Assembly (NCBI GenBank): GCA_963793265.1 | Contig: CAWBZI010000002.1 | Span: forward strand, 1-64,000 | From: an uncultured cyanobacterium | GTDB lineage: Bacteria > Cyanobacteriota > Cyanobacteriia > Phormidesmidales > Phormidesmidaceae | Direction of reading: 5' to 3' | DNA: 64,000 nucleotides | In this document: positions 22,451-39,469 of the stretch, piece after piece | Position numbering within the stretch: the first letter of the stretch is position 1 | Layout of the letters: every line of letters starts with the position of its first letter | Notes under the pieces: generated by a model | Database searches by the model: none | What the model was told of the DNA's origin: nothing | What the model saw: only the letters and a program-made list of their open reading frames with translations | Translations under genes and position numbers: made by a program

Positions 22451-22459
22451 TACAGCCGC

Positions 22460-22948: not shown

Positions 22949-22981
22949 AGCAAAGACCTTACAGAGACTATTTCATAAGTT

Positions 22982-23077: not shown

Positions 23078-26000
23078 ATGTCTAGCAACGTAATTTTTAT
23101 TCATCCTGACGGAGCCGATCCGTCTCATTTCGCTGCGGCGCGATTTGAATCAGTCGGCCCAGACGGTCGTCTTAACTGGGATGAGGCACCTGAATCAGCG
23201 GTATATCTGGGCCACCTCGATGATGCGATTGTGGCTACTTCCAACGCGGGCGCGGTTGTTCATGCGTATGGCGTTAAAGCAGTTGCACCTAGCTATGGCT
23301 TTGATGAAAATGGTGAGGAGTACGTCTCTTTGGCAGGTCTGCAAAATCAGAATGTGGCAGGCTCTCAGAACGACTTCACAATATTAGAAGAGGCAGCGGC
23401 GGCAGGTCGTCCAACGGCAATTATCAACTCTGGGTTTATTGCTGAGCCGGGTACGGGCGTTTTCTTCGCAGATGCAGAAAGTCGGAGCGATCGCGAAGGC
23501 ATCACCGCACAGCTCTTCTTTGATGCAGAAAGTGACGGCACCATCGCTGAAGGGACAACTCCCAGGGCTAAATACAACGTCATTATGGGCGCTGGCGAGC
23601 AAGACTATCTACCGGTCGGCGTTAGCGGTGTCTTTGGTGAAGGTGCCAGAGAAGATGGACTGAACCTGATCGAAATCGCAGAAGACCTTGGCTATACCGT
23701 TGTCTATAACCAAGAGCAGCTAGATGCGCTAGATCCAGCCACTGAAAACATTCTAGGCATCTTCGCCTCCGACGACACCTACAATGACGTTCCCGAAGGT
23801 GAACTGGTCAACCGCGGTCTAACCCAGCCAGATGGCTCCTTGGTTACCTACGGCCAGCCCGTCGCTGATGCGCCAAACCCCAACGGTCTGGTGCTCGATA
23901 CCGATGGCGACGGCTTCACCGATCCACCAACCGTCGGCGACATGCTAGAGGCAACCCTAGCGCTGGATCTTTTTGCGAATGAGGGTGACGAAGAAGGCGA
24001 AGGGTTCTTTATTGTCTTAGAAGAAGAAGGGACTGACAATTTTGGTAACAACAACAATGCTCGCGGCACCATAGATGCCACGCTACGGGCAGATGAGGCC
24101 ATCGGAGCCGCCCGCGACTTTATTGATAACGTTCAGTCCAACACGTTTGTGGTTACCGCAGCTGATAGTGCTGGCGGTAGTCTAGAGGTTGACGATGTTA
24201 CTGGCGAAACGGTCGGTACACTTACGACTCAGCGACAGCTCGACGCAGAAGGCAACAACAGCGGCGTTACCGTTCCTTTTGACGGAACGACCGGTAGCGA
24301 CACGGCTCCTTTTGTAGCTGCGCCTGCCGATAACGGCAACGTGTATGAGTTTGGCGTTAATTGGGCTGGTCTGCCCGACTTTGCTGGCAGCATTGTGACT
24401 AAGGCCTATGGCGAAGGCGCAGAGCGCTTACCCGGCACTATTGACAACACGGCTATCTACCGCTTGATGTACGAAAGTCTGTTCGATGTTAGCTTAGAAT
24501 CCCCTACCGGCGTTCCAGACGATCTAGCCCCTCGTCAGGCTCCTGAACCCACCGCAGATACAGGCAATGTCATCTTTGTGCATCCAGACGGAACTAGCCC
24601 CTCGCACTATGCAGCAGCTCGACTTGCCACCGTGGGTACCGACGGTCGGTTGAACTGGGATCAGATGAGCAATGCCGGGGTGTATCTAGGTCATATTGAC
24701 GACCGATTAGTGGCAACCTCTAATGCAGGTGCGGTGGTGCATGCTTACGGCGTTAAGCCATTTGCAGGCAGCTATGGCTTCGATGCACCGGTTGAAGAAG
24801 GCGGTGAGGAGATTGTTGCGCTCTCTGGCTCTAACAACACCATTATGAAAGAAGCTCAAGCAGCGGGTAAGGCTATTGGTATTATCAACTCGGGCTTTAT
24901 TGCCGAACCGGGTACTGGCGTTTTTCTCGCAGACGTAGACAACCGTGGAGAAACAGAGGAGATTACAGCCGAGATTCTTGACTCTGGCGCTCAGGTTATT
25001 CTCGGCGGTGGCGAGACTGATTATTTGCCTGTAGGCACCGTCGGCGTTTTTGGAGAAGAAGGGACTCGCGAAGATGGCCGCAATTTAATTGAGGAAGCTG
25101 AAGCAGCTGGTTATACCGTTGTCTTCACTCGCGAAGAACTGCTAGCTGTTGACACTAACACCACCGATAAGTTGCTGGGTATCTTCGCTGCTGAAGATAC
25201 TTACAACGATCTTTTTGAGGACGAGTTGCGACGCGATGGTTTCGTCGATGAGAATGGCGAGTTGATTCTCTATGGCCAGCCACCGCTCAACCCCAATCCG
25301 CCTACCGTCGCGGAGATGACATCGGTTGCACTGCCCATCTTGAACGCCGACCCAGACGGCTTCTTTCTTGTTTTAGAAGAAGAGGGTACCGACAACTTTG
25401 GAAACGACAACAATGCGGCTGGAACGATTGAAGCTGCCATCCGCGCGGACGAAGCGCTTGGCGTGGCATTGGACTTTGTGGATAACATTGATCCTAATAC
25501 GCTGGTGATTACTGCAGCTGATTCTGATGCGGGTGGTTTAGAAGTAGACGATGTACCCATCGGTGAAGGCACTTTCGGGCTCACCGAGCCTGAGTCAAAC
25601 GACACGATTCGGGTACAGGCTGAGACAACGGCCTTTGGCCCTGATGCAGATGGCATTCCGGTGCAGCTTGATGATACGGATGGCAGCAACGATGTTCCTG
25701 GATTTAGTACCGATGTCTACGAGCCGTTTACAACCGGTGCGCCCGATGCGGATGGCGATATCTTTGACTTTGGCGTTGCCTGGGCGACGAACTCTGACGT
25801 GAATGGTGGCATTGTCTCTAAAACCTACGGTCTCAATGCTGACTTACTGCCTGCGACGACCGACAATACTGATATCTACCGCGTTATGTATCAAACCTTG
25901 TTTGGTGCGCCCCCGGAAGAGATTGCATCAAACCGCTCTACGGGCATCAGCTTTGATGAAAAAATCTTCGGTACAGCTGTTGATGATGCCTTCTCAGGCA

Positions 26001-26368
26001 CTGCGAATGACGATATCATCTTTGGCCTTGAGGGTAACGATACGCTCCTTGGAGAAGAGGGCAGCGACGTTATCTTTGGCGATGAGGGTGACGATCTTCT
26101 CTTTGGTGGTAATGATGGCGAAGAGATTCTCTTTGGCGGTAGCGGTGCGGATACATTTAGTCTTGGTGCGGGCGCGGGCGTAGGCATTATTATGGACTTC
26201 GAGAATGCGGATCTGATTGGTCTTGAAGGCGGCATCAGCGCAGGCAGTCTATATAAAGTACAAGATGGCGATAACACGGTTATTGGTACTTTTGAGGGTG
26301 ACCTACTCGCCGTTGCCGTTAATACTACGGTCGATCAGCTTACGAACGATAGGTTTATTGCTGTATAA
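23078..26368 (+). CDS. Tandem two-domain alkaline phosphatase (PhoA superfamily, atypical ligands) with RTX/T1SS-type C-terminus
   Basis: Two repeats of NVIF(I/V)HPDG...VATSNAGA...EEEGTDNFGN...TAADS. GGxGxD repeats and the shared C-terminal module. Confidence 0.85.
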   Translation: MSSNVIFIHPDGADPSHFAAARFESVGPDGRLNWDEAPESAVYLGHLDDAIVATSNAGAVVHAYGVKAVAPSYGFDENGEEYVSLAGLQNQNVAGSQNDFTILEEAAAAGRPTAIINSGFIAEPGTGVFFADAESRSDREGITAQLFFDAESDGTIAEGTTPRAKYNVIMGAGEQDYLPVGVSGVFGEGAREDGLNLIEIAEDLGYTVVYNQEQLDALDPATENILGIFASDDTYNDVPEGELVNRGLTQPDGSLVTYGQPVADAPNPNGLVLDTDGDGFTDPPTVGDMLEATLALDLFANEGDEEGEGFFIVLEEEGTDNFGNNNNARGTIDATLRADEAIGAARDFIDNVQSNTFVVTAADSAGGSLEVDDVTGETVGTLTTQRQLDAEGNNSGVTVPFDGTTGSDTAPFVAAPADNGNVYEFGVNWAGLPDFAGSIVTKAYGEGAERLPGTIDNTAIYRLMYESLFDVSLESPTGVPDDLAPRQAPEPTADTGNVIFVHPDGTSPSHYAAARLATVGTDGRLNWDQMSNAGVYLGHIDDRLVATSNAGAVVHAYGVKPFAGSYGFDAPVEEGGEEIVALSGSNNTIMKEAQAAGKAIGIINSGFIAEPGTGVFLADVDNRGETEEITAEILDSGAQVILGGGETDYLPVGTVGVFGEEGTREDGRNLIEEAEAAGYTVVFTREELLAVDTNTTDKLLGIFAAEDTYNDLFEDELRRDGFVDENGELILYGQPPLNPNPPTVAEMTSVALPILNADPDGFFLVLEEEGTDNFGNDNNAAGTIEAAIRADEALGVALDFVDNIDPNTLVITAADSDAGGLEVDDVPIGEGTFGLTEPESNDTIRVQAETTAFGPDADGIPVQLDDTDGSNDVPGFSTDVYEPFTTGAPDADGDIFDFGVAWATNSDVNGGIVSKTYGLNADLLPATTDNTDIYRVMYQTLFGAPPEEIASNRSTGISFDEKIFGTAVDDAFSGTANDDIIFGLEGNDTLLGEEGSDVIFGDEGDDLLFGGNDGEEILFGGSGADTFSLGAGAGVGIIMDFENADLIGLEGGISAGSLYKVQDGDNTVIGTFEGDLLAVAVNTTVDQLTNDRFIAV

Positions 26369-26385
26369 CCGGCGGTATGTACTTC

Positions 26386-26441
26386 GGGCGATCGCGCCTC
26401 TAAAACAACCGCGCTCGCCAATCAACTATGAACGAACCCCC
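26386..26441 (+). repeat. 3'-UTR element, copy 1
   Basis: GGGCGATCGCGCCTCTAAAACAACCGCGCTCGCCAATCAACTATGAACGAACCCCC, near-identical to 30013-30070. Confidence 0.85.
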
Positions 26442-26455
26442 GTATCCCAAAGGCT

Positions 26456-26983
26456 TCATTTAGCCTCTGGGCTTTTTCTTAGTACTTGTCTGAGCTGGAT
26501 GAGCGATCGCAGCCACTGCTGAGCAGGTTTGTCGAAAAAGGTAAAGATGTCACCGAAGGCGATCGCGCCATTTTCGTGATGAACCCAGTGCTCTTCGGGC
26601 GTAACCACCCACAGCATATTGCATGTCTTCTGAATCCACTCCGGCGTTTGCCAACCCATCTTAGTCGTGTGCCGCCATACAACGTGGAATTCACCAAACA
26701 CTAACCCCAATACTGTTCCAACTGGAGAAAGCGGCCATAGGACAAAAGCAAAAACAATGTAAGGAAGCGCGCCTAATAGTCCATCTAGCATGACTAGCGG
26801 GTGTCTAGAAAGGACTGCATAATGCTGAAACGTCTGCTTAGTCTCATGATGAATTCGACAGTGCAGTTTACCAATGGCATGTTCTGGAACGTGATAGGCA
26901 AACGTGGAAACAAAGTCGCCCATTAAAAGTAAAAGGCATAGCGCAGACGCTGCCTTAAGCGTTTCTATTAAAATCAAAAACAA
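26456..26983 (-). CDS. Fatty acid hydroxylase/sterol desaturase family protein
   Basis: His boxes YHVPEH, HCRIHH, HVVWRH and HWVHH with TM segments. Confidence 0.8.
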   Translation of the reverse strand: MFLILIETLKAASALCLLLLMGDFVSTFAYHVPEHAIGKLHCRIHHETKQTFQHYAVLSRHPLVMLDGLLGALPYIVFAFVLWPLSPVGTVLGLVFGEFHVVWRHTTKMGWQTPEWIQKTCNMLWVVTPEEHWVHHENGAIAFGDIFTFFDKPAQQWLRSLIQLRQVLRKSPEAK

Positions 26984-27180
26984 GCTCGCGAAGCCTCTAG
27001 TAACATATCTTGCCGTACGTATATTAGAGAAATATTGAGAGCGAACTAAATCTACCGTAAGATTGGGTTAAGAGTAAGTGGATGATGTTGAGCGTAGCTG
27101 AATAGAGAAAGAGAACACAGCATTCTCTTGTAATTTTGTCCAGAGTATTGTTTAAACGAAACCAAGGTATTGAAGAATAT

Positions 27181-27232
27181 CTTGAAGATAGCTTATAGAG
27201 GTTTTATTGCCATCTTAATACTGCATTAATCT
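27181..27232 (+). promoter_or_regulatory. Putative Pho box array
   Basis: In-phase 11-bp-period 8-mers: CTTGAAGA 27181, CTTATAGA 27192, TTTATTGC 27203, CTTAATAC 27214, ATTAATCT 27225. Confidence 0.55.
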
Positions 27233-27464: not shown

Positions 27465-29993
27465 ATGCCCAATATTGGAGAAACTACAGCGCTTATCCCT
27501 CAGTCAGGCAGTTCCTATCAGCCTGAGGATTTGCAACCCGGACAAAGCGGCGCGACTGACTTTCCGTATGGAGACTTTAAGGCGATCGCCACCGTCGGCG
27601 AAATCGATTCATCGAACGGCCACGTTTTGACAGGTTATCCAGATGGTCAGGCAGCTTGGCTAAAAGACGAAGACACCGTGCGCGTAGCGTACCAGTCCGA
27701 GTCTTACGGAACCCTGTCAAGCGAAACCTACCCCTGGCAAATGGATAGTGGCGCAACCTTTACAGGTTCTCATATCCACACCATCGACTACGACCGCGCT
27801 GCTTTTGCGGACTTCATGAACAATGACAGCGCCGCCAGCGAAATGTTCCAAAGCGCGGGTCACTTGTTTAGCACCGTCTACAACGTATTTGGCGAGGTTG
27901 TAACTGGGAAAAACACTGATCCTAATGATCTGGGCGCTAAGTGGGGCAACCAGTCATTAGCGGATGGAACAGTGGTTGAGTTTGACGAAGGTCAGCAGCT
28001 TACGCTCGCTGACTGGTATTTCCACTCTTTCTGCGGAGCCTACTATGAGCAAGCAAACAAGTACGGCGACGGCATCGGCTTTGAGGATGACGTATGGCTG
28101 GTAGGAGAGGAATGGAACATCGGCGATCTGTATGACGATGCTGTTGAAGAGATCTCTTCGCAAGAAGGCTTTTTCTCCACGGAAGAAACAACAGGCGATG
28201 ACTTCTTTCTTGGCACGATGGGCCTAGCCTCTATGGTGGTCGATATTGAGAACGAAACAGCTTACACTGCGCCTGCGCTAGGTCAGACCGGCTACGAGAA
28301 GATCATGCCGATTAACTCGGGTAGCGAAGACTACGTTGTTATGGTGATGGCGGGCTATAACCTAGAGGTAGAGCCTGCACCGATGAAGATTTACATCGGT
28401 AAAAAGGGTGTGGATGCCAACGGCGACGCGCTGACTGAAGATGCGAATGAGCGCGATTCATTCTTGGGTCGTAACGGTTTGCTCTACGGCCAGCTCTACG
28501 GTATGGCCGCTACGGACGAAACCTTTGCTTCGCTAGGCATTACAGAGGTAGACGCAGATACTAAGATGATGGATGCGTACGTCACCGACGCCGACGCACC
28601 AGAGAACTTCAGCGTACGGTACTACGCTACTGATTATCGCTGGGATGGCTTTGATACGCCTGAGAACGCCAACGAGACTGAGCTTTTCCGCTGGATGCAA
28701 GATGGTGACACGCTAACCGATGGCACCGTTGAGGCGAATGAGCAGCCCGATGGCTACACCTATTTCAATGGCGACAGTAAGGTAGAACATCCGGCGGTCG
28801 ATCCTGATATTACAAAGAGTCGCTACGTTCAAAACTTGACTGTCCCTAGCGCTCAGCTTGGCGTTGAGTTCACAGATATTGCTAACGAGCTAGAGAACAA
28901 CGATGCTGATGGTGACGGCCTGCCTGACTTCCTTTCGGCGGATGTAACTCGCATTTTGGCGGGCGTTGATGGTGCGCTGACGCTTGAGACGGGCAATGCC
29001 GGTCAAGCTTCGATTGGCCCAAATAATCCCGACGGTACGCTGACTCATGCAGTCCATGTTGAGGATGGCGAGGCTCGATTGGATCAGCCTGACGGCTTGC
29101 AGTGGATTAAAACAGCCGATGGTGACTATCTGATTTTGGATGAGGATTCGGGTAATGACTATGGCGAGCGGAAGTTGATTTTGCCTATCGACTCTGAGAC
29201 TATGCAGCTCAAAGAAGATGGTAAGGGTTACTTCCTAGCGCAGGCAGGCGGTTCTTTGAACCCTCGGGCGATCGCCGAAGTAGCGGCTATTCCCGATACC
29301 TTCTCTAGCGCTACTAGCTCCGAATTTTCCGGTACTTGGAACGTGACTCACCTAGTCGCCAAGAAGGAAAACGGCAGCTTCTATACGGCGGAAGAGTTAG
29401 CCGGAATGGGCGCGCAAGAGGTCATCGAAAGCTACACGCTAGAGGAACAGACACTGCTTGGCGTAGTTCAGCACAGAGGCGAATCTGGCGGCATCGTGGA
29501 AGAACGCTTAGCTGACCAAGGCGGTCAGGTCTTCTTGTTCAGCGTGGATCTCGATCCGAACGATGGCGGCAGCGATGGTCTCGGCAAGTCTCAAATCTTT
29601 GGCACTAACGGCGTTGACGAACTGCTGGGCACCGCAGAGGGCGAGCAAATCTTCGGTCTTGAAGGTGACGACATGCTAACTGCTAGCGGTGACGATGTTC
29701 TATTCGGCGGCGACGGCGACGATATGTTAAAGAGCGGCGGCGGTAACGAAGTCTTCTTTGGCGGTAGCGGAGCAGATATGTTTCACCTAACCGTTGGAGA
29801 TGGCGCGACGACCATCATGGATTTTGAGAGCGGCGATAAGATCGGTCTTTCTGGTGGTATGAGTGCCAACGGTTTGTACAAAGTTCAAGATGGTGATAAC
29901 ACCGTCATCGGCACCTACGGAGGTGACCTGCTTGCAGTTGTGACGAATACTTCTGTAGAGCAGTTCTCGAACGATGTGTTTATGGCTGCGTAA
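27465..29993 (+). CDS. Secreted acidic protein, probable atypical alkaline phosphatase (PhoA-aty/PhoX-like), RTX C-terminus
   Basis: ATVGE...LTGYPDGQAAW...VAYQSESY, HSFCG, DQPDGLQW...ILDEDSGN, SEFSG and Q(H)..QGGQ motifs recall algal atypical APases and PhoX-type folds. Shares the C-terminal module and sits among phosphatase genes. Confidence 0.6.
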   Translation: MPNIGETTALIPQSGSSYQPEDLQPGQSGATDFPYGDFKAIATVGEIDSSNGHVLTGYPDGQAAWLKDEDTVRVAYQSESYGTLSSETYPWQMDSGATFTGSHIHTIDYDRAAFADFMNNDSAASEMFQSAGHLFSTVYNVFGEVVTGKNTDPNDLGAKWGNQSLADGTVVEFDEGQQLTLADWYFHSFCGAYYEQANKYGDGIGFEDDVWLVGEEWNIGDLYDDAVEEISSQEGFFSTEETTGDDFFLGTMGLASMVVDIENETAYTAPALGQTGYEKIMPINSGSEDYVVMVMAGYNLEVEPAPMKIYIGKKGVDANGDALTEDANERDSFLGRNGLLYGQLYGMAATDETFASLGITEVDADTKMMDAYVTDADAPENFSVRYYATDYRWDGFDTPENANETELFRWMQDGDTLTDGTVEANEQPDGYTYFNGDSKVEHPAVDPDITKSRYVQNLTVPSAQLGVEFTDIANELENNDADGDGLPDFLSADVTRILAGVDGALTLETGNAGQASIGPNNPDGTLTHAVHVEDGEARLDQPDGLQWIKTADGDYLILDEDSGNDYGERKLILPIDSETMQLKEDGKGYFLAQAGGSLNPRAIAEVAAIPDTFSSATSSEFSGTWNVTHLVAKKENGSFYTAEELAGMGAQEVIESYTLEEQTLLGVVQHRGESGGIVEERLADQGGQVFLFSVDLDPNDGGSDGLGKSQIFGTNGVDELLGTAEGEQIFGLEGDDMLTASGDDVLFGGDGDDMLKSGGGNEVFFGGSGADMFHLTVGDGATTIMDFESGDKIGLSGGMSANGLYKVQDGDNTVIGTYGGDLLAVVTNTSVEQFSNDVFMAA

Positions 29994-30012
29994 TCGGACA
30001 GTAAAACCGACT

Positions 30013-30070
30013 GGGCGATCGCGCATCTAAAACAACCGCGATCGTCCAATGACCTATGAACGAACGCCCC
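30013..30070 (+). repeat. 3'-UTR element, copy 2
   Basis: GGGCGATCGCGCATCTAAAACAACCGCGATCGTCCAATGACCTATGAACGAACGCCCC. Confidence 0.85.
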
Positions 30071-30072
30071 TT

Positions 30073-30106
30073 AGCCTGGTGGTTCTACTTAGCCACCAGG
30101 CTTTTT
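30073..30106 (+). terminator. Rho-independent terminator
   Basis: Stem AGCCTGGTGG/CCACCAGGCT followed by a T-run. Confidence 0.8.
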
Positions 30107-30114
30107 CCTTATTC

Positions 30115-30155
30115 GTAAACCTTTCTATAACCTGACTATAAACTCTTCTTTACCT
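30115..30155 (+). promoter_or_regulatory. Pho box (SphR/PhoB-type), four repeats
   Basis: GTAAACCT 30115, TATAACCT 30126, TATAAACT 30137, CTTTACCT 30148: exact 11-bp period and close to CTTAACCT. Confidence 0.7.
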
Positions 30156-30308: not shown

Positions 30309-33300
30309 ATGAAAATCTCTCTTTCTCGAATCGGCAGTTTCCAAAGTGAAGCTGGCGCAGAAATTCTGACGTTTGACTCCGCTCGCAATCTTGTTTACAC
30401 CGTCTCGGGAGGCACTACGCTACAGGTCATCGATTTGAGCGATCCGACCGCGCCTTCTGAAGTGGCTACCATCGACATTACAGACTTTGGGCCAGTAGGC
30501 GCAGCTAATAGCGTTGCTTATAAAAATGGACTGCTCGCAGTTGCCTTAGAAGCAGAAACTGTTACCGATCCGGGGGTCGTCGCGCTAGTGAACCTGGAGG
30601 AAATCGCTACTCCAGAAGACATTCCAGCCGCCGTTAAAACCTTCACAGTCGGCGCACTACCAGACTCTCTTACCTTCACGCCAGACGGCAGCAAAATCCT
30701 AGTTGCCAATGAAGGAGAACCCGACGAAGGTATAGATCCCAATGGATCTGTGAGTATTATTGACGTTTCTGGCGAGTTTGATAGTCTGAGCCAAACAAAT
30801 GTCGCCACCGCAGACTTTCTTCGTTTTAACGAGCTGACAGAAAACCTCAGAGCAGATGGCGTCAGAATCTTCCCAGATGCGACTGCCGCTCAAGATTTTG
30901 AGCCAGAATTCATTGCCGTTTCGCCCGATGGGTCGAAGGCATTTGTCACGCTGCAAGAGAATAATGCGATCGCCATCGTAGATATTGAGAGTGCAACGGT
31001 CGAAGGCGTTCAGCCGTTGGGTCTGAAGGACTTCAATAGAGGATTGCCTGAGTTAACTACGTTTGATTTTGTCGATAGAGGAGCGATCGCCAACGATGCA
31101 GATCCACTAACAACTGCCACAGGCGAAACCATCGAACTCGGTGGATTTTCTGGACTCTATTACGAGGGCAAAGCAGAAAACGGAAACCTTAAGTTTTTAG
31201 CTGTTCCAGATCGCGGGCCTAATGGCGATGTAGACGGTAACAATCGCCCTTTTTTACTGCCCGACTATCAAGCGCGAGTCGTCTCCTTCGAGCTAAACGA
31301 GAGCACAGGCGAGATTACTATCAACAACCAGCTACTGCTCTCTCGCGAAGACGGTACGCCCATCACAGGTCTGCCGAATATTCCAAATGTAGACCGTCAG
31401 GCCGTAGATGCCGCAGGCAATCCAGTTGATTCACCAGAGCTAGAAGGCTTTGAAACCTTTGGTGCAGACTACGATCCCTTTGGCGCAGACTTAGAGAGCA
31501 TACTGAGAGCGCCCGACGGTACGCTATGGGCTGTCGATGAGTACCGTCCAGCTATCTATCAGTTTGACCAAAGCGGAACGCTGCTCAATCGTTACATACC
31601 AGAAGGTACAGCAGCGCAAGCAACCGAGGCGAATCTAGGCAGTCAATTTGCGGCGGGCGATTTTGGCACAGAAACGCTACCCGCTGAGTACCTCAACCGT
31701 CGCGCCAATCGTGGCTTTGAAGGCGCAGCGCTAGATACAGAAACGGGCATCTTCTACGCTTTTATCCAAACGCCGCTAAGCAATCCAGATAGGGATGCGG
31801 GCGATGCCTCTGATGTCATTCGTATCCTGGGCATTGATCCAACAACAGGAATCCCAGTCTCAGAATACGTTTACCTTTTGCAAAAGCCGGAAGTCGGTGG
31901 CAACGTCGATAAAATTGGCGATGCGGTCTTTATTGGCGATGGAAAGTTCTACGTCATAGAGCGAGATTCTTCGCTAGCCGACGATGGACAAAAGTTTGTA
32001 TTCGAGATCGATATTAAAGGCGCAACAAACGTACTGGGCCGAGACTTCGGTGACGAGACACTAGAACAACAGACTACCGAACCACTACTTACGCAAGGCA
32101 TTCAGCCAGTAAGTAAGACGAAGATTGCTAATCTGCCTTCGATAGGATATTTACCTTCTGATAAACCAGAGGGTATTGCACTGCTAGATGACGGTCGAAT
32201 TGCTGTCCTCAACGACAACGACTTTGGTTTGGTGGCAGGTGCTGAGGCGGTTCAGCTTGGCATTATTGACTTTGCGCAGAGTAATGGATTGGATGCGAGC
32301 GATCGCGATAACGGCATCAACATAGATAACGAACCTGTCTTCGGCCTGTACATGCCTGACTCTATCGCCTCCTTTGAAGCGGATGGTCAGACCTACTACA
32401 TCATCGCCAACGAAGGCGACGACCGAGGAGACGCCGACGAGGACGAGCGCGGCGATGCCATTCGCCTTAAGGACTTAGCAGAGGTTACCTCTTTTGGCCG
32501 CGCGGGTATAGAACTCGATCCGACCTTCGCCGCTTCGCTACCGGCAGATATTGCAGAAGATGAGAACCTGGGTCGGCTAGTTCTCTCTTCCATCGACGGA
32601 GATACAGATGGCGATGGAGACATAGACCGCTTAGTTTCCTACGGCGGACGCTCCTTTTCCGTACTGGACGCAAACGGCAACATCGTCTTCGACAGCGGCG
32701 ATCAGATTGCTCGCATCACGGCGGAGGCAACACCCGAGCTATTCAACGCAGATGACGGCCTTCCTGAAGAATTTGACAACCGCTCGGACAACAAAGGCGC
32801 TGAGCCTGAAGCGATCGCAACTGGTGTTATCAACGGCAAGCCCTACGGCTTTGTGGGTCTAGAACGCGCAGGCGGCGGCGTTTTGGTTTACGACCTCTCG
32901 AATCCGATGGCTCCTGAGTTTGTTCAATACATCCGCAGCGACGAGGACATTGCGCCAGAAGGATTACAGTTCATCCCCGCTGCTGATAGTCCAAACAGCC
33001 AACCACTGCTCGCAGTCGCCAACGAAGTTTCTCAAACGCTCGCCGTCTACGCCATCGACGTACCACCCGTCAGCGTTAGCGAGATTCAAGGCGCTGGGCA
33101 GATTTCACCCCTAGCAGGAGAGCTGGTAACAACAGAAGGCATTGTAACCGGCGTTGCGTTCAACGGCTTTTACCTGCAAGGAGAGGGGGATGGTGACGAT
33201 GCCACGTCTGACGGGATCTTTGTCTTTACCGACGACCAGCCGACCGTGAGTGAGGGTGATCGCGCTCAAGTCTCTGCCATAGTCAGCGAATTTATCCCCG

Positions 33301-35276
33301 GCGGCGCAGACACCGGCAATCTCTCAATCACGCAGCTCACCGATCCAGACATCACCGTTCTCTCTTCTGACAATCCGCTACCCAAAGCCGTCGTCATCGG
33401 TCTCGGCGGTCGCATTGCACCTACTGAAATTGTCATCTCAGACGACGAACTGCCAACGAATCTACAAGAAACCGCAGGCAACTTCGATCCAGAACAAGAC
33501 GCCATCGACTTTTACGAAAGCTTAGAAGGCATGCGCGTCACGGTAGAAGATGCCGTCGCCGTCTCGCCCACTCGCGTCTTCAATCGTTTCTCGGCAGAAG
33601 CCTTTACCTTGCCAAACCAGGGCGCAACGGCAACACCAGACGGCGTTCTCACGGATAGAGGCGGCATCAACTTACGCTCCGGCCCAGACAACAGAGGCGA
33701 TCAAAATCCCGAGCGCGTACAAATTCAGTTCGATCCAAATCTGTTACCGGAAGGGTTTGAAACCCCTGCGCTAACGGTAGGCGACCAGCTAGGTGATGTC
33801 ACAGGAGTCCTGGGCTACAGCTTTGGTAACTTCGAAGTAAACGTTACCGAGGCTTTTGACATTACGCCGAGCGGACTCACCCAAGAAGTCACAGACCTGA
33901 TGGGAACAGATAGTGACCTGACGGTGGCGAGCTACAATGTACTGAACCTTAGTCCGCTCGAAGAAGACGACGCGCAGCGACAACTTCTAGCGGAGCAGAT
34001 TGTCAACAACTTAAAGGCTCCCGACATTATCGGCCTGCAAGAGATTCAAGATAATGATGGAACAACAGACGGTGCCGATAGCACGGTGACGGATGCCACA
34101 CAGACTTTGCAGGCTTTAGTGGATGCGATCGCCGCAGCAGGCGGCCCCACCTACGCCTTCGCAGACATCGCCCCAGCCGACGACAGCACAGGCGGCGTCC
34201 CCGGCGGCAACATCCGCAACTCATTCCTCTACAATCCAGAGCAAGTTTCACTAGACTCGCTCGAACTCTTAGAAGACCTAGAAGCCTTCGACGGCAGCCG
34301 CGATCCGCTAGTTGGCACATTCACCTTCAACGATGAAACCGTCACCATCGTCAACAACCACTTTTCTTCTCGCTTTGGCTCCACGCCCGTCTTCGGCGGC
34401 CCGCAGCCCTTTGTACAAGCAGGTGAAGAAGCGAGAGAAGCGCAGGCACAAGCCATTAATGATTATGTCGATGGCATCTTAGGGGACGATCCTCATGCCA
34501 ACGTTGTTGTTTTAGGCGACTTAAACACCTTTGAGTTTACCAACGACCTAGCGGAGATTCTACCGGGAACGGGGGACGAGCAAGTGCTGACGAATTTAGT
34601 AGAGCAGGCGATCGCCGACGACGATGCCTACAGCTTTATCTTCGATGGCAACAGTCAGGTACTAGACCATTTATACATTTCCGATTCTCTGCTACCAGGC
34701 GCACAGTTCGACATCGTACATGTCAACAACGACTTCCCTCGCGACGACAATAGGATTCGCTTTGAAGATACCGTTGTCGCTAGTGACCACGAACCGTTAG
34801 TCGCCCAGCTCTCCTTCGCAGACTTTCCTACCAACATTGGCAAAACGCCTGTCTTTGGAAGCCTTGATGACGACCTACTACTTGGCAGTTCCGGCGATGA
34901 GGTTCTGTTTGGAGAAGCCGGTAACGACACGCTTTTGGGCGAAGCGGGCGATGATTTACTGCTAGGTAAAAGCGGTAATGACTATCTGCGCGGTGGCGGC
35001 GGTATGGACGTGTTGATTGGTGGAGAAGGCGCGGATGTGTTTGCGTTGGCACAGCCTCTCCAGGGGAGAATCGCGCCTAACGAAGGCATCAGCATCATCT
35101 CCGACTTTGAAGCCGGTATAGACCTCATCGGCTTGGCAGAAGGTCTAAGCTTGGGCGAGCTATATCGAGTTCAAGAAGGTTCTAACACTGTCATTGGTAC
35201 CTATGCAGGCGAATTGCTAGCTGTCGTTACAAACGCTGAAGCCAGTCAGTTTGAAGCAGCCTTTCTTTCGGTATAA
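30309..35276 (+). CDS. Multidomain secreted hydrolase: choice-of-anchor-I-type alkaline phosphatase, inserted phytase-like domain, OB-fold and ExeM/NucH EEP nuclease, RTX C-terminus
   Basis: ANEGEP, EPEFIAV, TLQENNA, ANEGD and RSDNKGAEPE (phosphatase). PDRGPN, DEYRP, NRGFEG and NDNDFG (phytase-like). SYNVLNL, LQEIQD, GDLN, LDH and SDHEP (EEP). Confidence 0.88.
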   Translation: MKISLSRIGSFQSEAGAEILTFDSARNLVYTVSGGTTLQVIDLSDPTAPSEVATIDITDFGPVGAANSVAYKNGLLAVALEAETVTDPGVVALVNLEEIATPEDIPAAVKTFTVGALPDSLTFTPDGSKILVANEGEPDEGIDPNGSVSIIDVSGEFDSLSQTNVATADFLRFNELTENLRADGVRIFPDATAAQDFEPEFIAVSPDGSKAFVTLQENNAIAIVDIESATVEGVQPLGLKDFNRGLPELTTFDFVDRGAIANDADPLTTATGETIELGGFSGLYYEGKAENGNLKFLAVPDRGPNGDVDGNNRPFLLPDYQARVVSFELNESTGEITINNQLLLSREDGTPITGLPNIPNVDRQAVDAAGNPVDSPELEGFETFGADYDPFGADLESILRAPDGTLWAVDEYRPAIYQFDQSGTLLNRYIPEGTAAQATEANLGSQFAAGDFGTETLPAEYLNRRANRGFEGAALDTETGIFYAFIQTPLSNPDRDAGDASDVIRILGIDPTTGIPVSEYVYLLQKPEVGGNVDKIGDAVFIGDGKFYVIERDSSLADDGQKFVFEIDIKGATNVLGRDFGDETLEQQTTEPLLTQGIQPVSKTKIANLPSIGYLPSDKPEGIALLDDGRIAVLNDNDFGLVAGAEAVQLGIIDFAQSNGLDASDRDNGINIDNEPVFGLYMPDSIASFEADGQTYYIIANEGDDRGDADEDERGDAIRLKDLAEVTSFGRAGIELDPTFAASLPADIAEDENLGRLVLSSIDGDTDGDGDIDRLVSYGGRSFSVLDANGNIVFDSGDQIARITAEATPELFNADDGLPEEFDNRSDNKGAEPEAIATGVINGKPYGFVGLERAGGGVLVYDLSNPMAPEFVQYIRSDEDIAPEGLQFIPAADSPNSQPLLAVANEVSQTLAVYAIDVPPVSVSEIQGAGQISPLAGELVTTEGIVTGVAFNGFYLQGEGDGDDATSDGIFVFTDDQPTVSEGDRAQVSAIVSEFIPGGADTGNLSITQLTDPDITVLSSDNPLPKAVVIGLGGRIAPTEIVISDDELPTNLQETAGNFDPEQDAIDFYESLEGMRVTVEDAVAVSPTRVFNRFSAEAFTLPNQGATATPDGVLTDRGGINLRSGPDNRGDQNPERVQIQFDPNLLPEGFETPALTVGDQLGDVTGVLGYSFGNFEVNVTEAFDITPSGLTQEVTDLMGTDSDLTVASYNVLNLSPLEEDDAQRQLLAEQIVNNLKAPDIIGLQEIQDNDGTTDGADSTVTDATQTLQALVDAIAAAGGPTYAFADIAPADDSTGGVPGGNIRNSFLYNPEQVSLDSLELLEDLEAFDGSRDPLVGTFTFNDETVTIVNNHFSSRFGSTPVFGGPQPFVQAGEEAREAQAQAINDYVDGILGDDPHANVVVLGDLNTFEFTNDLAEILPGTGDEQVLTNLVEQAIADDDAYSFIFDGNSQVLDHLYISDSLLPGAQFDIVHVNNDFPRDDNRIRFEDTVVASDHEPLVAQLSFADFPTNIGKTPVFGSLDDDLLLGSSGDEVLFGEAGNDTLLGEAGDDLLLGKSGNDYLRGGGGMDVLIGGEGADVFALAQPLQGRIAPNEGISIISDFEAGIDLIGLAEGLSLGELYRVQEGSNTVIGTYAGELLAVVTNAEASQFEAAFLSV

Positions 35277-35348
35277 ATTCAGCCATCTAACTTAGTAACA
35301 GTGATTCAACGCATCCAGACGTTTCTATATCTGTTACAGATTTCCAGA

Positions 35349-35378
35349 TTTAACGCAGTGTTCTCTTTCTCTTAACCA
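35349..35378 (+). promoter_or_regulatory. Putative Pho box (two good half-sites 22 bp apart)
   Basis: TTTAACGC 35349 and CTTAACCA 35371, with a degenerate middle unit. Confidence 0.45.
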
Positions 35379-35422
35379 TACGCTCATAGTCTTTAGAATA
35401 TCTCTTACCTCTTCCTTATTTT

Positions 35423-38400
35423 ATGAACGAAAACACTCTAGTAGGGTTTGCCTCTCTACCCGCCGATACGTTTGCAGAAGGCCCTCCATCAGGAACAGAC
35501 AATGGCCGCATTGATGCGGTAGAGCGCATCCAGCCAATCAGCGCAAACGGTAGAACCGGCCCTTTTGAAGGTCAGCCTGTTCAAGGGTTTAGCGCGGTTC
35601 AGTTCGCGCCCGGAGACGACCCGAGCGTTTTCTGGTTCCTTTCGGACAATGGTTTTGGTGGAGAAGCTAACAGCACTGACTATCTACTGCGCTTGTATCA
35701 GGTAGATCCTAACTTTGTGGGCACAGAAGACGGCGATGCCTCCGTTGAAGTACAGGGATTTGTACAGCTCTCCGATCCCAGCAACCTCATTCCTTTCGAT
35801 ATTATTAACGAAGGTAGTGCCGAGCGAAATCTAACCGGCGGCGACTTCGATATCGAATCATTTGTAATAGCCGAGAATGGCGATATCTGGGTAGGTGAAG
35901 AGTTCGGCCCCTATCTGTTGCATTTTGATAGCACGGGTACGCTACTCGAAGCGCCAATTGCAACGCCAAATCCGGTGAACTTAAACACGCTGAATGGTCA
36001 AGACCCCCTGGTGATTGCGCATAGGGGCGCAAGTGGTGATTTTCCTGAGCATACGTTGGAAGCTTATCGCGCGGCGATCGCAGCCGGTGCAGACTTCATC
36101 GAACCCGATTTAGTCACGACCAGCGATGGCGTTCTCATCGCTCGCCACGAACCCATGCTAGACGACACCACCAACGTCGCAGAGGTGTTCGGCCCCGAGC
36201 GTATGTCTACCAAACTGCTAGACGGCGAAGAAGTCACCGCCTACTTTGCAGAAGATTTTACGCTAGAAGAGATCAAGCAGCTTCGTGCTGTTCAATCTCG
36301 CGACTTTCGAGATCCTAACTTCGATGGTTTGTTCGAGATTCCTACTTTCCAAGAAGTGATTGAGCTAGTCCAAGAAGTCGAAGCGCAAACAGGCGTACAA
36401 GTTGGCATCTACCCAGAAACAAAACACCCTACCTTTTTCGACCAGCAAGGACTCTCCTTAGAAGACCCATTAATTGAGACGCTACAGGCAACCGGCTTCA
36501 CCGATCCAAACCGGATTTTTATTCAATCTTTTGAATTCCAAAACCTCATCGAGCTACAAGTGCAGCTAGACGCCGAAGGACTAGGCGACTTGCCATTGGT
36601 ACAGCTCTACGGCAACACGACCGACAGCGCCGCGCCAACCAGCGGGTTTTCTGTACCTTACGATATTCGCTTCAACGTTCAGCAGGGCAACGATCTGGCC
36701 GCTATTTATGGTCAGGACTTTTTAGATGCCGCTGAAACTGCGCTAAACGAAGATACGATTTACAGCGATCTCGACAGCGCTGAGCTACTTCAGGTCATTA
36801 GCGCTAAGTATGCAGAAGGCGCAGGCCCCTGGAAGAACAACTTTGTACTGCGCGAGCCACTAGAAACTCCCGTAGACGGCAATGGCGACGGCGAGGCTGA
36901 GATTACGACTCAGCTTACCGGCGAGATTGGCCCCTTTGTAGAGGATGCACATGCGGCGGGCTTGCAAGTACATCCTTATACGCTGCGCGATGAAGAGAGA
37001 TTTCTAACGCTTAACGCAGACGGGACGCCGCAAACGCCGGAGCAAGAGTTTCAGCAGCTCGTTGAAATTGGCGTGGATGGGTTCTTTACAGACTTTGCTC
37101 GTACGGGCGATCCGGTCGTGGATAAGCTAACAAGTGATAACGTGCGATCGCCCAACAACCCCGACTTCGACTTCAACACGCTCAATGGCCAAACGCCCCT
37201 CGTCATTGGCCATCGAGGAGCCAGCGGCGACTTCCCCGAACACACCCTCGAAGCCTATCGCCTCGCCATCTATCAGGGTGCAGACTTTGTTGAACCCGAC
37301 CTGGTATCCACTAGCGACGGCATCCTCATCGCTCGTCACGAACCCATGCTAGACGACACTACCAATATCGCAGAGGTGTTCGGCCCCGAGCGCATGTCTA
37401 CAAAACTGCTCGATGGTGAGGAAGTCACCGCGTACTTTGCAGAAGACTTTACGCTAGCAGAAATTAAACAGCTCCGCGCCGTTCAATCTCGCCCTTACCG
37501 CAATCAAGAATACAACGGTGAGTTCGAGATTCCGACCTTCCAAGAAGTCATCGAGCTGGTTCAAGAAGTCAGCACCGAAGTAGGCCGCGATGTCGGCATT
37601 TATCCAGAAACGAAGCACCCCACCTTCTTCGACAAGCAAGGACTTTCTCTAGAAGAACCGCTGGTTCAAACGCTAGTGGAAACTGGATTTACCGATCCAA
37701 ACCGGATTTTCATTCAGTCCTTTGAAATCTCCAATCTGCTGGACTTGCGCAACAATCTTCTACCGGAGGCAGACCTGGATAGCTTAAAGCTCGTACAGCT
37801 TTTTGGCGACACCGAAGGCAGCTTCATCAACGAAGGTGGCGGCGGTTTCTCTGTTCCTTACGATGTTGTCGTAAATGCCTCTCTCTCTGATACAGAGAAA
37901 GCTGCTATCTATGGAAACCTACTGCCATTTCTCGACTTTGAGAACCCCGGATATAGCAACTTGGCAAACGCCGAAGCCATCGTAGAAATCAGCAGCTACG
38001 CTGACGGCCTCGGCCCCTGGAAGAACAACATTCTACTACGCGAACCCATTGAGACACCCGTAGACGGCAACGGCGACGGCGAAGCAGAAATTACCACCCG
38101 GCTAACAGGCGAGGTCTTCCCACTCATTGACTTTGCGCACAACGCAGGCTTGCAAGTACATCCTTACACCTTGCGCGACGAAGAGAGATTTCTCACGCTC
38201 AACGCAGATGGGACGCCTCAGACCACGGGCGAAGAATTCCGTCAGTTGATTGAACTTGGCGCAGATGGCTTCTTCACCGACTTTCCAGAGACAGGCCGAA
38301 TAGTCGTCGAACAGTTTGAGACCGCAGAAGAATTCGCTAACCTACGCGGCTCTCGCGGCTACGAAGGCATGGCCTTCAGTCCAGATCGCCAAACGCTCTA

Positions 38401-39469
38401 TCCAATGCTTGAAGGCACCGTCTTTGGCGATCCGGCTGGCTCGCTACGCATCTACAAATTCGACGTAGCCAGCAGCGCCTTTGAAGGGATTGTCGGCCTC
38501 TATCAAGCGGACGATCCGAGTCATGCCATTGGAGACTTCACGCCTATTAACGATACCGAGTTCCTCGTTATTGAGCGCGACGGCAGACAAGGTGCAGAAG
38601 CTGAGTTCAAGAAGATCTTTAAGGTAGATCTTTCTGAAGTTGATGCAGACGGCTTTGTGGAGAAAACGGAAGTTGTAGACTTGCTCGATATCGCAGATCC
38701 AAACGATCTTAATAACGACGGTGAGACAACTTTTGACTTCCCTTTTGTAACGATTGAGGATGTTCTTGTCCTAGATAAGGACACCATCCTGGTTGCGAAT
38801 GACAACAACTACCCGTTCTCAATTGGTCGCGACTTTAGCGGCACAGAAATTGATAACAACGAGATTATTCAAATCGAGCTAGCCGAACCGCTTAATCTCG
38901 ATTCTCGCCTGGGTGCAGCAGGTCTTAGCACGACTGATTTTCTGATTGAACCGCCTGGTAACAGCAGTCTCTTTTTGGGAACTAGCGAAGCTGATTTTAT
39001 CATCGGCGCAGAGGGGGACAGTCAGCTCTTTGGCCTAGCGGGTGACGATACGCTAAAAGGCGATCTGGATTCGGAGAGCGGCAACGATCGTCTCTTCGGA
39101 GGTGAAGGCGAAGATCTGTTACTGGGCGGCAGCGGCGATGATGTCTTGTTCGGTGGTGCAGATGACGATGTTCTACTGGGCGATCGCGGCAACGATTTTC
39201 TGCATGGCGGCGCAGGTAGCGATATCTATACAGGTGGCGAAGGCGCAGATATCTTTGCCCTGATGATAGGCGATGGCGTCAGCGTCATTAACGACTTTGA
39301 AGCAGGCATCGATCGAATCGGGCTACAAGATGGCTTAAGATTCGGTCAGCTTTATCGCGTTCAGGATGGTGCGAACACCGCAATCGGAACGTTCGAAGGC
39401 GAACTACTAGCCGTTGCGGTGAATGCAGATGCGAGCCAGTTTGGAGCGTATGCCTTCGTTTCAGTTTAA
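35423..39469 (+). CDS. Phytase-like esterase containing two glycerophosphodiester phosphodiesterase (GDPD) domains, RTX C-terminus
   Basis: QPVQGFS, SDNGFG, EEFGPY, SRGYEG and NDNNYPF (phytase-like). Two copies of (A/G)HRGASG..PEHTLEAY, EPDLV, YPETKHP, IQSFE, VHPYT and DGFFTDF (GDPD). Confidence 0.9.
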   Translation: MNENTLVGFASLPADTFAEGPPSGTDNGRIDAVERIQPISANGRTGPFEGQPVQGFSAVQFAPGDDPSVFWFLSDNGFGGEANSTDYLLRLYQVDPNFVGTEDGDASVEVQGFVQLSDPSNLIPFDIINEGSAERNLTGGDFDIESFVIAENGDIWVGEEFGPYLLHFDSTGTLLEAPIATPNPVNLNTLNGQDPLVIAHRGASGDFPEHTLEAYRAAIAAGADFIEPDLVTTSDGVLIARHEPMLDDTTNVAEVFGPERMSTKLLDGEEVTAYFAEDFTLEEIKQLRAVQSRDFRDPNFDGLFEIPTFQEVIELVQEVEAQTGVQVGIYPETKHPTFFDQQGLSLEDPLIETLQATGFTDPNRIFIQSFEFQNLIELQVQLDAEGLGDLPLVQLYGNTTDSAAPTSGFSVPYDIRFNVQQGNDLAAIYGQDFLDAAETALNEDTIYSDLDSAELLQVISAKYAEGAGPWKNNFVLREPLETPVDGNGDGEAEITTQLTGEIGPFVEDAHAAGLQVHPYTLRDEERFLTLNADGTPQTPEQEFQQLVEIGVDGFFTDFARTGDPVVDKLTSDNVRSPNNPDFDFNTLNGQTPLVIGHRGASGDFPEHTLEAYRLAIYQGADFVEPDLVSTSDGILIARHEPMLDDTTNIAEVFGPERMSTKLLDGEEVTAYFAEDFTLAEIKQLRAVQSRPYRNQEYNGEFEIPTFQEVIELVQEVSTEVGRDVGIYPETKHPTFFDKQGLSLEEPLVQTLVETGFTDPNRIFIQSFEISNLLDLRNNLLPEADLDSLKLVQLFGDTEGSFINEGGGGFSVPYDVVVNASLSDTEKAAIYGNLLPFLDFENPGYSNLANAEAIVEISSYADGLGPWKNNILLREPIETPVDGNGDGEAEITTRLTGEVFPLIDFAHNAGLQVHPYTLRDEERFLTLNADGTPQTTGEEFRQLIELGADGFFTDFPETGRIVVEQFETAEEFANLRGSRGYEGMAFSPDRQTLYPMLEGTVFGDPAGSLRIYKFDVASSAFEGIVGLYQADDPSHAIGDFTPINDTEFLVIERDGRQGAEAEFKKIFKVDLSEVDADGFVEKTEVVDLLDIADPNDLNNDGETTFDFPFVTIEDVLVLDKDTILVANDNNYPFSIGRDFSGTEIDNNEIIQIELAEPLNLDSRLGAAGLSTTDFLIEPPGNSSLFLGTSEADFIIGAEGDSQLFGLAGDDTLKGDLDSESGNDRLFGGEGEDLLLGGSGDDVLFGGADDDVLLGDRGNDFLHGGAGSDIYTGGEGADIFALMIGDGVSVINDFEAGIDRIGLQDGLRFGQLYRVQDGANTAIGTFEGELLAVAVNADASQFGAYAFVSV

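What the first reader, a model, noticed from the sequence alone, without database searches (positions are those of the whole stretch)
23078..39469. Array of four giant secreted phosphoester hydrolases sharing one export tag: an organic-phosphorus scavenging toolkit
Seen: four co-oriented genes (1096, 842, 1655 and 1348 aa), all very Asp/Glu-rich, without N-terminal signal peptides, and ending in GGxGxD repeats plus a homologous ~70-aa tail (AD.F.L...G...I.DFE...D.IGL..G...G.LY(K/R)VQ(D/E)G.NT.IGT(F/Y).G(D/E)LLAV..N....Q....F..V/A). Together they carry about nine catalytic domains from six different families: 2x PhoA, an atypical APase, a choice-of-anchor-I phosphatase, 2x phytase-like, an EEP nuclease and 2x GDPD. 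Established: RTX repeats plus a C-terminal signal indicate type I secretion, and these families act on monoesters, nucleic acids and glycerophosphodiesters. Inference: a modular extracellular system that strips phosphate from most dissolved organic P classes, possibly with different metal cofactors. Individual fusions are known in cyanobacteria, but I do not know this clustered, commonly tagged set as a described system. No T1SS genes are in the window.
Basis: partly seen in the sequence, partly recalled or inferred. Interest (0 to 1): 0.82.

Follow-up and report, generated by a model that had tools for sequence, protein, structure and literature searches.

The report
Secreted phosphatase array with swappable tails
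Four neighbouring genes of a cyanobacterium carry nine enzyme modules predicted to release phosphate from organic compounds, likely exported and switched on by phosphate starvation; similar arrays recur across cyanobacteria, and the shared protein tail is a lineage-specific version of a common predicted export signal, found almost only on these enzymes and likely copied between them.

Summary
Observation confirmed, with corrections. The four ORFs, nine domains and shared 74-aa tail are real, but an opposite-strand gene interrupts the array and each gene has its own Pho-box-like site. The 'atypical APase' is Psip1. A fifth tail-bearing gene on another contig is also a phosphatase/5'-nucleotidase; 0 of 16 other RTX-type proteins of the genome carry the tail. 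One HlyB/HlyD pair and one TolC lie elsewhere, without strong Pho boxes. The tail is a variant of the generic cyanobacterial RTX end: 49 of 54 informative carriers are phosphoesterases (generic tail: 2 of 34), yet 8 of 9 close orthologues of gene 4 use the generic tail. Arrays or fusions of the same modules occur at 33 of 48 cyanobacterial Psip1 loci, often with their own lineage tail, sometimes copied recently (34/34 silent sites identical). Both PhoA domains lack the zinc-binding histidines. Best reading: a phosphate-starvation exoenzyme kit using the general type I exporter, built by cassette duplication and tail exchange. Secretion, regulation and activity are untested. The scan noted similar giant phosphatase clusters on other genomes before; the tail behaviour is the addition.

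The parts
22971..23000 (+). Pho-box-like site (three 8-mers at 11-bp spacing) before gene 1
   Evidence: 19 of 24 consensus matches; rank 64 of 4266 with a matrix trained on other genomes
23078..26368 (+). Gene 1: two tandem PhoA-fold domains (aa ~2-469, ~495-942, 50% identical) lacking the zinc-binding histidines, RTX repeats, tail
26144..26365 (+). Shared 74-aa C-terminal tail of gene 1
   Evidence: alignment A2
26386..26478 (+). 3' untranslated double hairpin, 80% identical to the one after gene 2 and not found at full length elsewhere in the genome
26456..26983 (-). Intervening 175-aa ORF with His-rich motifs, no Pfam/NCBIfam match; not part of the tagged set
27203..27232 (+). Pho-box-like site before gene 2
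   Evidence: 18 of 24; rank 1 of 4266
27465..29993 (+). Gene 2: Psip1-family alkaline phosphatase (aa 1-~700, PhoX-like propeller), RTX repeats, tail (29769-29990)
30013..30107 (+). 3' double hairpin after gene 2, including a terminator-like stem (30073-30102)
30115..30155 (+). Pho-box-like site (four half-sites) before gene 3; visibly alike to the site before the fifth gene
   Evidence: 20 of 24; rank 16 of 4266
30309..35276 (+). Gene 3: choice-of-anchor I (atypical PhoA-type) domain split by a phytase-like insert (aa 276-639), ExeM/NucH-like EEP nuclease (aa ~942-1502), RTX repeats, tail (35028-35273)
35349..35378 (+). Pho-box-like site before gene 4, also seen before its orthologue in G070
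   Evidence: 19 of 24; rank 50 of 4266
35423..39469 (+). Gene 4: phytase-like domain split by two GlpQ-type GDPD domains (70% identical), RTX repeats, tail (39242-39466)
22170..22950 (.). IS630 and IS701 transposase fragments left of the array
40645..41386 (+). IS630 element right of the array, absent from the matching contigs of three metagenome runs

Best explanation
The four genes, with a fifth on another contig, encode nine-plus phosphoesterase-family domains and likely form a phosphate-starvation exoenzyme kit that is predicted to be switched on gene by gene through Pho boxes and exported by the cell's general type I secretion system. Shown: domain content, conserved catalytic motifs, tandem Pho-box-like sites, RTX repeats with a shared tail, one HlyB/HlyD pair and one TolC in the genome. 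Inferred: under low phosphate SphR/PhoB activates each gene; the unfolded acidic chains pass HlyB-HlyD-TolC tail first and fold in external calcium; outside, the nuclease cuts DNA/RNA, GDPD splits glycerophosphodiesters, and the 5'-nucleotidase, Psip1 (Fe/Ca type), the choice-of-anchor I domain and the histidine-free PhoA domains release phosphate from the monoesters for Pst uptake. The shared tail is most likely an ordinary export signal whose sequence is a lineage signature: promoter-enzyme-RTX-tail-terminator cassettes were duplicated and exchanged tails by recombination in the repeats, so phosphorus genes of one lineage share a tail while their orthologues elsewhere carry another.
For: Domains and motifs; Psip1. 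All five tail genes score 18-21 of 24 on the Pho consensus (324 of 4266 upstream regions reach 18) and rank 1, 3, 16, 50, 64 of 4266 with a matrix trained on 19 upstream regions of other genomes, where a pstS-like gene not in the training set ranks 5. Exporter: one HlyB and one HlyD over cut-off, adjacent; one TolC. Tail is generic in kind: matches in 85 of 121 family genomes, 1122 representatives at E<=0.001. Tail is exchangeable: 8 of 9 near-full-length gene-4 orthologues (83-92% identical) end in the generic tail; Psip1 orthologues at 85-86% carry DUF4114. Copying seen: two adjacent G062 genes with different enzymes are 90% identical over 542 nt with 21 of 24 four-fold sites alike; L061 29/29 and L065 34/34; 28 within-array pairs 89% aa and 513/694 silent sites against 69% and 55% for 91 orthologous Psip1 tail pairs. 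Genes 1 and 2 share a 3' hairpin cassette. Precedent: NucH and Sll0654 are the second and third most abundant exoproteins of P-limited Synechocystis (PMC11126600 Supplementary Table 3).
Against: No RNA, proteome or activity data for this organism. The Pho matrix was seeded with the consensus and trained on promoters of homologous genes, so the ranks are partly circular; it ranks phoX 286 and the pstSCAB leader 655, and the plain consensus gives 18 also to the generic-tail phosphatase g6, phoX and pstS. In this genome the five tails are saturated at silent sites (2-5 of 13-18 alike) yet keep the same motif, and carriers are scattered over unlinked loci, which neighbour-to-neighbour copying alone does not explain. 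In only 5 of 14 arrays is a Psip1 tail at least as close to a neighbour's tail as to another genome's Psip1 tail, and PhoD-type genes in 3 arrays have an unrelated tail. Five tail carriers have no phosphoesterase domain.
Confidence: 0.7

Rival explanations
1. The tail is a functional, phosphorus-specific address: beyond export it gives these enzymes priority at the exporter, a dedicated partner, or retention/assembly on the cell surface, so selection keeps phosphorus enzymes of a lineage on a common tail.
For: 5 of 5 carriers in this genome, 49 of 54 informative database carriers and 6 of 6 metagenome matches with a visible passenger are phosphoesterases, against 2 of 34 generic-tail representatives; a different array tail in five picocyanobacterial genomes is again confined to array genes (13 of 14 strong hits) although two of them hold at least 16 other RTX frames each; motif kept despite silent-site saturation; tail and strong Pho box co-occur, g6 has neither by the matrix.
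Against: 8 of 9 gene-4 orthologues lack it; G070 mixes variant and generic tails in one four-gene array; no full-length HlyB beside any of 79 Psip1 loci or 6 metagenome loci, one HlyD-family gene only; hlyB and tolC rank 805 and 356 for Pho boxes. Carriers are mostly close kin, so the counts are not independent.
Confidence: 0.2
2. Part of the kit is not catalytic: the histidine-free PhoA domains (and perhaps the phytase-like propellers) are binding or scaffold modules, so the array covers fewer phosphorus classes than its domain list suggests.
For: Where solved and canonical PhoA have D-x-x-x-H and A-D-H, both domains have D-N-F-G-N and A-D-S, and no His occurs after that point in either domain. 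'Phytase-like' is only a Pfam label.
Against: The nucleophile Ser and the acidic ligands are kept, and the same substitutions recur in all 12 loci inspected from a clade found in 25 of 301 cyanobacterial genomes, which fits a re-tuned (Ca/Mg-type) site better than decay.
Confidence: 0.15
3. The proteins leave by another route or stay cell-bound (vesicles, S-layer association), and the RTX/tail module is mainly a calcium-dependent folding or adhesion unit.
For: Few strict GGxGxD repeats; no exporter genes linked; Synechococcus Psip1 proteins lack both a signal peptide and a tail (PMC11098088 main text and Fig. S7).
Against: C-terminal repeats, acidic and Cys-poor composition and an unprocessed ~60-residue C-terminal signal are the type I hallmarks (PMC3034196 passages); the genome has the full exporter.
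Confidence: 0.08

Closest known systems
Synechocystis PCC 6803 phoA-nucH operon (sll0654-sll0656), SphR regulon (PMC1906773 passages and section 4.4; PMC11126600 passages and Supplementary Table 3)
   Same: Clustered atypical phosphatase and extracellular nuclease behind tandem Pho boxes; both abundant in the P-limited exoproteome.
   Different: Two genes in one operon there; here four clustered genes plus one unlinked, separate boxes, with Psip1, PhoA-fold and GDPD modules and a shared tail. The Synechocystis sequences were not compared here.
Psip1 high-affinity Fe/Ca alkaline phosphatase of Prochlorococcus MED4 / clade III Synechococcus (PMC11098088; main text parts 1-4 of 8, supplement part 5 of 6)
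   Same: Gene 2 matches the Fig. S7 alignment motif by motif (read by eye) and folds like PhoX; proteins of species in the paper's tree (Crocosphaera chwakensis, Halothece, Rubidibacter, Cylindrospermopsis) are 71-79% identical to it.
   Different: No N-terminal signal peptide; carries RTX repeats and a tail; sits in a hydrolase array. The paper notes phytase-like fusions and 'hemolysin-type' annotations; the parts read do not discuss arrays or type I export.
Classical PhoA (E. coli, Halomonas 3wbh, shrimp 1k7h)
   Same: Fold-level sequence match (E 2.5e-20), Ser nucleophile and acidic metal ligands.
   Different: All three zinc-binding histidines are replaced or missing; tandem duplicate domains; RTX tail instead of a Sec signal.
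RTX proteins exported by HlyB/HlyD/TolC (PMC3034196 passages)
   Same: C-terminal Gly/Asp nonapeptides, terminal signal, acidic, Cys-poor.
   Different: Tail variant is shared by one functional class and is exchanged between genes; no Pfam or PDB match for the tail.

Membership tests
RTX / type I secretion substrate | C-terminal Gly/Asp nonapeptide repeats | tested here: met
   PF00353 over cut-off in all four; 4-6 relaxed repeats each
RTX / type I secretion substrate | No N-terminal signal peptide; acidic, Cys-poor | tested here: met
   Crude hydrophobicity scan only; D+E 17.5-18.4%, 0-1 Cys
RTX / type I secretion substrate | HlyB/HlyD/TolC available | tested here: met
   One each, unlinked to the array
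RTX / type I secretion substrate | Export depends on the exporter and the C-terminus | not testable with these tools
   needs mutants
Psip1 (gene 2) | Sequence motifs of the Psip1 alignment, including the Lys equivalent to K432 | tested here: met
   SFCG, EEW, GYEK, SKxEHP (K439), DEDSG, EFSG present and invariant in 110 aligned sequences; comparison with the paper was by eye
Psip1 (gene 2) | PhoX-like propeller without PhoX sequence match | tested here: met
   Model pLDDT 91.6; best Foldseek hits PhoX 3zwu E 3.7e-13, 12% identity; no Pfam hit
Psip1 (gene 2) | Fe- and Ca-dependent high-affinity monoesterase activity | not testable with these tools
   needs assay
Classical PhoA (gene 1) | Ser nucleophile and acidic ligands (E. 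coli D51, S102, E322, D327, D369; numbering recalled) | tested here: met
   HPDG, TSNAG, EEEGTD, TAAD in both domains
Classical PhoA (gene 1) | Three Zn-binding histidines (E. coli H331, H370, H412; numbering recalled) | tested here: not met
   Asn and Ser at the first two positions; no His in the segment holding the third. Works like PhoA in fold; not filed as classical Zn/Mg PhoA
Choice-of-anchor I / atypical PhoA (gene 3) | NF038117 above cut-off | tested here: met
   501.5 bits, cut-off 300
ExeM/NucH nuclease (gene 3) | NF033681 above cut-off and EEP motifs | tested here: inconclusive
   166.9 bits, below cut-off 300, over the whole profile length; PF03372 over cut-off and YNVLN, LQEI, NH, GDLN, LDH, SDHEP motifs present
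GlpQ-type GDPD (gene 4) | Family match and HRG / ExD / H / ExK motifs | tested here: met
   NF008354 370.7 bits for the whole two-domain protein, cut-off 254; motifs in both domains; GlpQ 1t8q E 8e-37
SphR/PhoB regulon | At least three tandem 8-bp boxes (CTTAACCT consensus, PMC1906773) | tested here: inconclusive
   Sites before all five genes, top 1.5% by matrix, but partly circular training and weak ranks for phoX and pstSCAB
SphR/PhoB regulon | Binding and induction by phosphate starvation | not testable with these tools
   needs EMSA and expression data
phoA-nucH-type operon | Single co-transcribed unit | tested here: not met
   Opposite-strand ORF, terminator-like stem and separate boxes between genes; transcription itself untested

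The most novel reading that the evidence does not exclude
Cyanobacteria label their phosphate-scavenging exoenzymes with a lineage-specific C-terminal address that is kept in step by recombination and gives the class its own export priority or surface assembly, and the kit includes a zinc-free PhoA, so that phosphate can be mined under Zn, Fe or mixed metal shortage.
Probability: 0.2. Interest if true: 0.75.

Novelty: new variant of a known kind. Interest (0 to 1): 0.52.

Why it matters
Which phosphatases cyanobacteria export, and which metals they need, sets how dissolved organic phosphorus is recycled and how phosphorus limitation couples to iron and zinc. These arrays are mostly annotated as 'calcium-binding' or 'RTX toxin-like' proteins, so they are missed in phosphatase surveys. 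If true, the work gives a sequence handle for finding unannotated phosphorus enzymes (the lineage tail), a natural experiment on type I signal specificity (same enzyme, different tails; different enzymes, same tail), an export route for Psip1 forms that lack a signal peptide, and a widespread PhoA clade that may work without zinc.

Tried and rejected
Single-sequence fold of gene 2 failed (pLDDT 31.8); the alignment-based model was used. PDB sequence search with gene 2 found only RTX matches. Tail: no Pfam match, no PDB match; no Rfam match in 22000-41500. Sigma-70 and terminator counts are at chance level; only the 30073-30102 stem is used. No RNA holder listed. A complex prediction for tail self-association could not be run, so there is no verdict on binding. 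Recent gene conversion among this genome's five tails was rejected (silent sites saturated). A dedicated exporter beside the arrays was not found. PhoD not found in this genome. The idea that Synechocystis Sll0721, its top P-starvation exoprotein, is a Psip1 relative stayed untested: a published primer matched none of 116 fetched loci. Atlas search of a non-phosphatase tail carrier (P0026) gave only hypothetical proteins. The 70-aa tail tree has few columns and an unsettled bootstrap; pairwise identities were used instead. Paper searches returned nothing; others returned, by listing, nothing on such arrays, shared tails or histidine-free PhoA. The library lacks most subscription journals, and bioRxiv supplements were closed, so absence from print is not established.
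Full report
Observation. The four ORFs exist at the stated coordinates and lengths. They are among the most acidic large proteins of the genome (D+E 17.5-18.4%; 99th percentile 18.3% of 2308 ORFs) and have 0-1 Cys. Pfam and NCBIfam give two PhoA domains (gene 1), nothing but RTX for gene 2, a choice-of-anchor I domain split by a phytase-like insert plus an ExeM/NucH-like EEP domain (gene 3), and a phytase-like domain split by two GDPD domains (gene 4). Catalytic-type motifs are intact in the GDPD, EEP and propeller domains (motif roles recalled). The array is interrupted by a 175-aa opposite-strand ORF, gene 2 is followed by a terminator-like stem, and IS630/IS701 fragments flank it. Contigs of three macroalgal and sediment metagenome runs from at most two studies cover all 30 bins of the region; one spans 25064-31015; the right-hand IS630 is missing from all three. 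Named close hits are Phormidesmis-like cyanobacteria, so the host is probably such a filamentous cyanobacterium (inference).

Gene 2 is Psip1. A search found 611 relatives, mostly annotated as calcium-binding or RTX toxin-like. An alignment-based model (110 sequences, pLDDT 91.6) has PhoX as best structural match (E 3.7e-13, 12% identity). The Psip1 paper (PMC11098088; main text parts 1-4 of 8, supplement passages and part 5 of 6 read) describes this situation, and its Fig. S7 alignment matches gene 2 motif by motif by eye, including the Lys equal to K432.

Gene 1 is an unusual PhoA. Both domains keep the Ser nucleophile and acidic ligands, but where solved PhoA and canonical cyanobacterial relatives have D-x-x-x-H and A-D-H they have D-N-F-G-N and A-D-S, and no His follows in either domain. 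The same motifs occur in all 12 loci inspected (the window's own included) from a clade found in 25 of 301 phylum genomes. A calcium/magnesium-type site is the likelier reading; a pseudoenzyme is not excluded. One search found no paper on this; whether Anabaena All2843 belongs to this clade was not tested.

Regulation. Each gene, and the fifth tail gene, has three or four 8-mers at 11-bp spacing resembling the SphR box (CTTAACCT; PMC1906773 passages): 19, 18, 20, 19 and 21 of 24, while 324 of 4266 upstream regions reach 18 and 78 reach 19. A matrix trained on 19 upstream regions of homologous genes in other genomes ranks them 64, 1, 16, 50 and 3 of 4266, and a pstS-like gene outside the training set 5. 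Against: training was seeded with the consensus and uses homologous promoters; phoX ranks 286, the pstSCAB leader 655; the plain consensus also gives 18 to phoX, pstS and a sixth, generic-tail phosphatase (rank 1427 by matrix). No expression data were available.

Export. The genome (99% complete) has one HlyB and one HlyD over the family cut-offs, adjacent on another contig, and one TolC; hlyB ranks 805 and tolC 356 for Pho boxes. No full-length HlyB lies beside any of 79 Psip1 loci or 6 metagenome tail loci; one HlyD-family gene lies near L070. Type I export follows from general RTX knowledge (PMC3034196 passages) and is not shown. In P-limited Synechocystis the three top exoproteins are the RTX protein Sll0721, NucH and Sll0654, and a PhoB-induced type I gene is reported there (PMC11126600 passages and Supplementary Table 3).

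The tail: specific in use. An HMM of the four tails finds one more protein in the genome, a choice-of-anchor I plus 5'-nucleotidase fusion on contig C1; 21 ORFs pass a relaxed RTX test, so 16 lack it. Among 320 fetched proteins 57 score 90-127 bits and the next scores 76; 48 match a phosphoesterase reference, one is an ExeM fragment by eye, three are tail-only fragments (dropped) and five are not phosphoesterases (two CHRD-only, two unknown, one DUF11). These include three of the genome's own proteins and many close kin. Of 34 generic-tail representatives (C-terminal match, 400 aa or more, from the best 150 of 1122) 2 are phosphoesterases. In JGI metagenomes 6 of 7 matches have a phosphoesterase passenger and one is cut; they are spread over six loci, two of which repeat genes of L034/L035.

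The tail: generic in kind and exchangeable. Weaker matches occur in 85 of 121 family genomes; the strong variant in 4 of 46 genus genomes, G000 included. Gene-4-like passengers occur in 27 of 45 relatives; of nine near-full-length orthologues (83-92% identical) eight end in the generic tail and one in the variant. G070 has a four-gene array with one variant and three generic tails. Psip1 orthologues at 85-86% identity carry DUF4114. Tail copying is visible: two adjacent G062 genes with different enzymes share 90% of 542 nt and 21 of 24 four-fold sites, whereas this genome's five tails are saturated (2-5 of 13-18), and genes 1 and 2 share an 80%-identical 3' double hairpin with three compensatory pairs.

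The pattern is general. Of the best 79 Psip1 loci (168 confirmed) I classed 48 as cyanobacterial by record title: 30 have another phosphoesterase gene within 8 kb, 8 are fusions, 33 either; for 31 others 1, 6 and 7 (many loci are cut by contig ends). Fusions reach 2.7 thousand residues. Tails of different enzymes in one locus are a median 76% identical (57 pairs) against 33% for the same enzyme in different loci (710 pairs), a contrast inflated by phylogeny. Within 14 picocyanobacterial arrays, 28 non-PhoD pairs give 89% and 513 of 694 silent sites, against 69% and 55% for 91 orthologous Psip1 tail pairs; two loci have 29/29 and 34/34. Against continuous homogenisation: the neighbour is the closest match in only 5 of 14 cases and PhoD-type genes in three arrays have an unrelated tail. 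In five of these genomes the array tail has 14 strong hits, 13 on array genes and one on a 135-aa frame whose passenger was not seen, while two of the genomes list at least 16 other RTX frames each, some possibly cut.

Mechanism and verdict. The likeliest account is a phosphate-starvation exoenzyme kit, separately promoted, exported by the general type I system, in which nuclease and diesterases feed monoesterases of differing metal needs; the common tail records cassette duplication and episodic exchange rather than a private export route (confidence 0.7). A class-specific function of the tail remains open (0.2) because the motif persists across unlinked, silent-site-saturated genes. The components are known, the Synechocystis phoA-nucH operon is a precedent, and earlier notes of this scan describe similar giant phosphatase clusters in other genomes. 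Ten paper searches showed no account of multi-gene arrays or shared tails; passages were also read in PMC11665274, PMC9846622, PMC4390845 and two preprints (10.1101/2024.10.09.617355, 10.1101/2025.04.09.648040), whose supplements were closed. New variant of a known kind; interest 0.52.

Noticed in passing
L001:7715-11551 (G000 C1:305714-309550): Fifth tail-bearing gene: choice-of-anchor I + 5'-nucleotidase, strongest Pho-like box by consensus (21 of 24); promoter resembles that of gene 3.
   Followed up: yes
G000 C6:573176-575413: Sixth RTX phosphatase (choice-of-anchor I) with a different tail and a poor Pho-matrix rank: possibly a constitutive or differently regulated paralogue.
   Followed up: partly
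window 26456-26983 (-): 175-aa membrane-looking ORF with several His-rich motifs (desaturase/hydroxylase-like by recall, no library match); its upstream region ranks 26 of 4266 for the Pho matrix.
   Followed up: partly
Synechocystis sll0721 (PMC11126600): The top exoprotein of P-limited cells is labelled an RTX toxin; a 1209-aa phytase-like + Psip1 + RTX protein (L058/P0117) suggests it could instead be a phosphatase fusion. Untested.
   Followed up: partly
P0033, P0036; P0010, P0013, P0014: CHRD domains occur alone with the variant tail and inserted in 5'-nucleotidase fusions, hinting at an accessory role in phosphorus scavenging.
   Followed up: no
P0018: A 200-aa ExeM fragment joined directly to a tail nearly identical to that of gene 4: looks like a recombination product.
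   Followed up: partly
L129:2231-13476: A tail-bearing phosphatase gene lies near a phosphonate-type ABC transporter among transposases, a further phosphorus island.
   Followed up: no
L091, L092, L094, L098, L110, L113: Marine Verrucomicrobia fuse Psip1 with choice-of-anchor I and mostly 5'-nucleotidase domains in proteins of up to 3157 aa, without RTX repeats.
   Followed up: no
window 42616-46041 (-): 1141-aa beta-helix protein with a weak inverse-autotransporter beta-domain match.
   Followed up: no
window 56275-59055 (-): MalT-like AAA/TPR/LuxR regulator.
   Followed up: no
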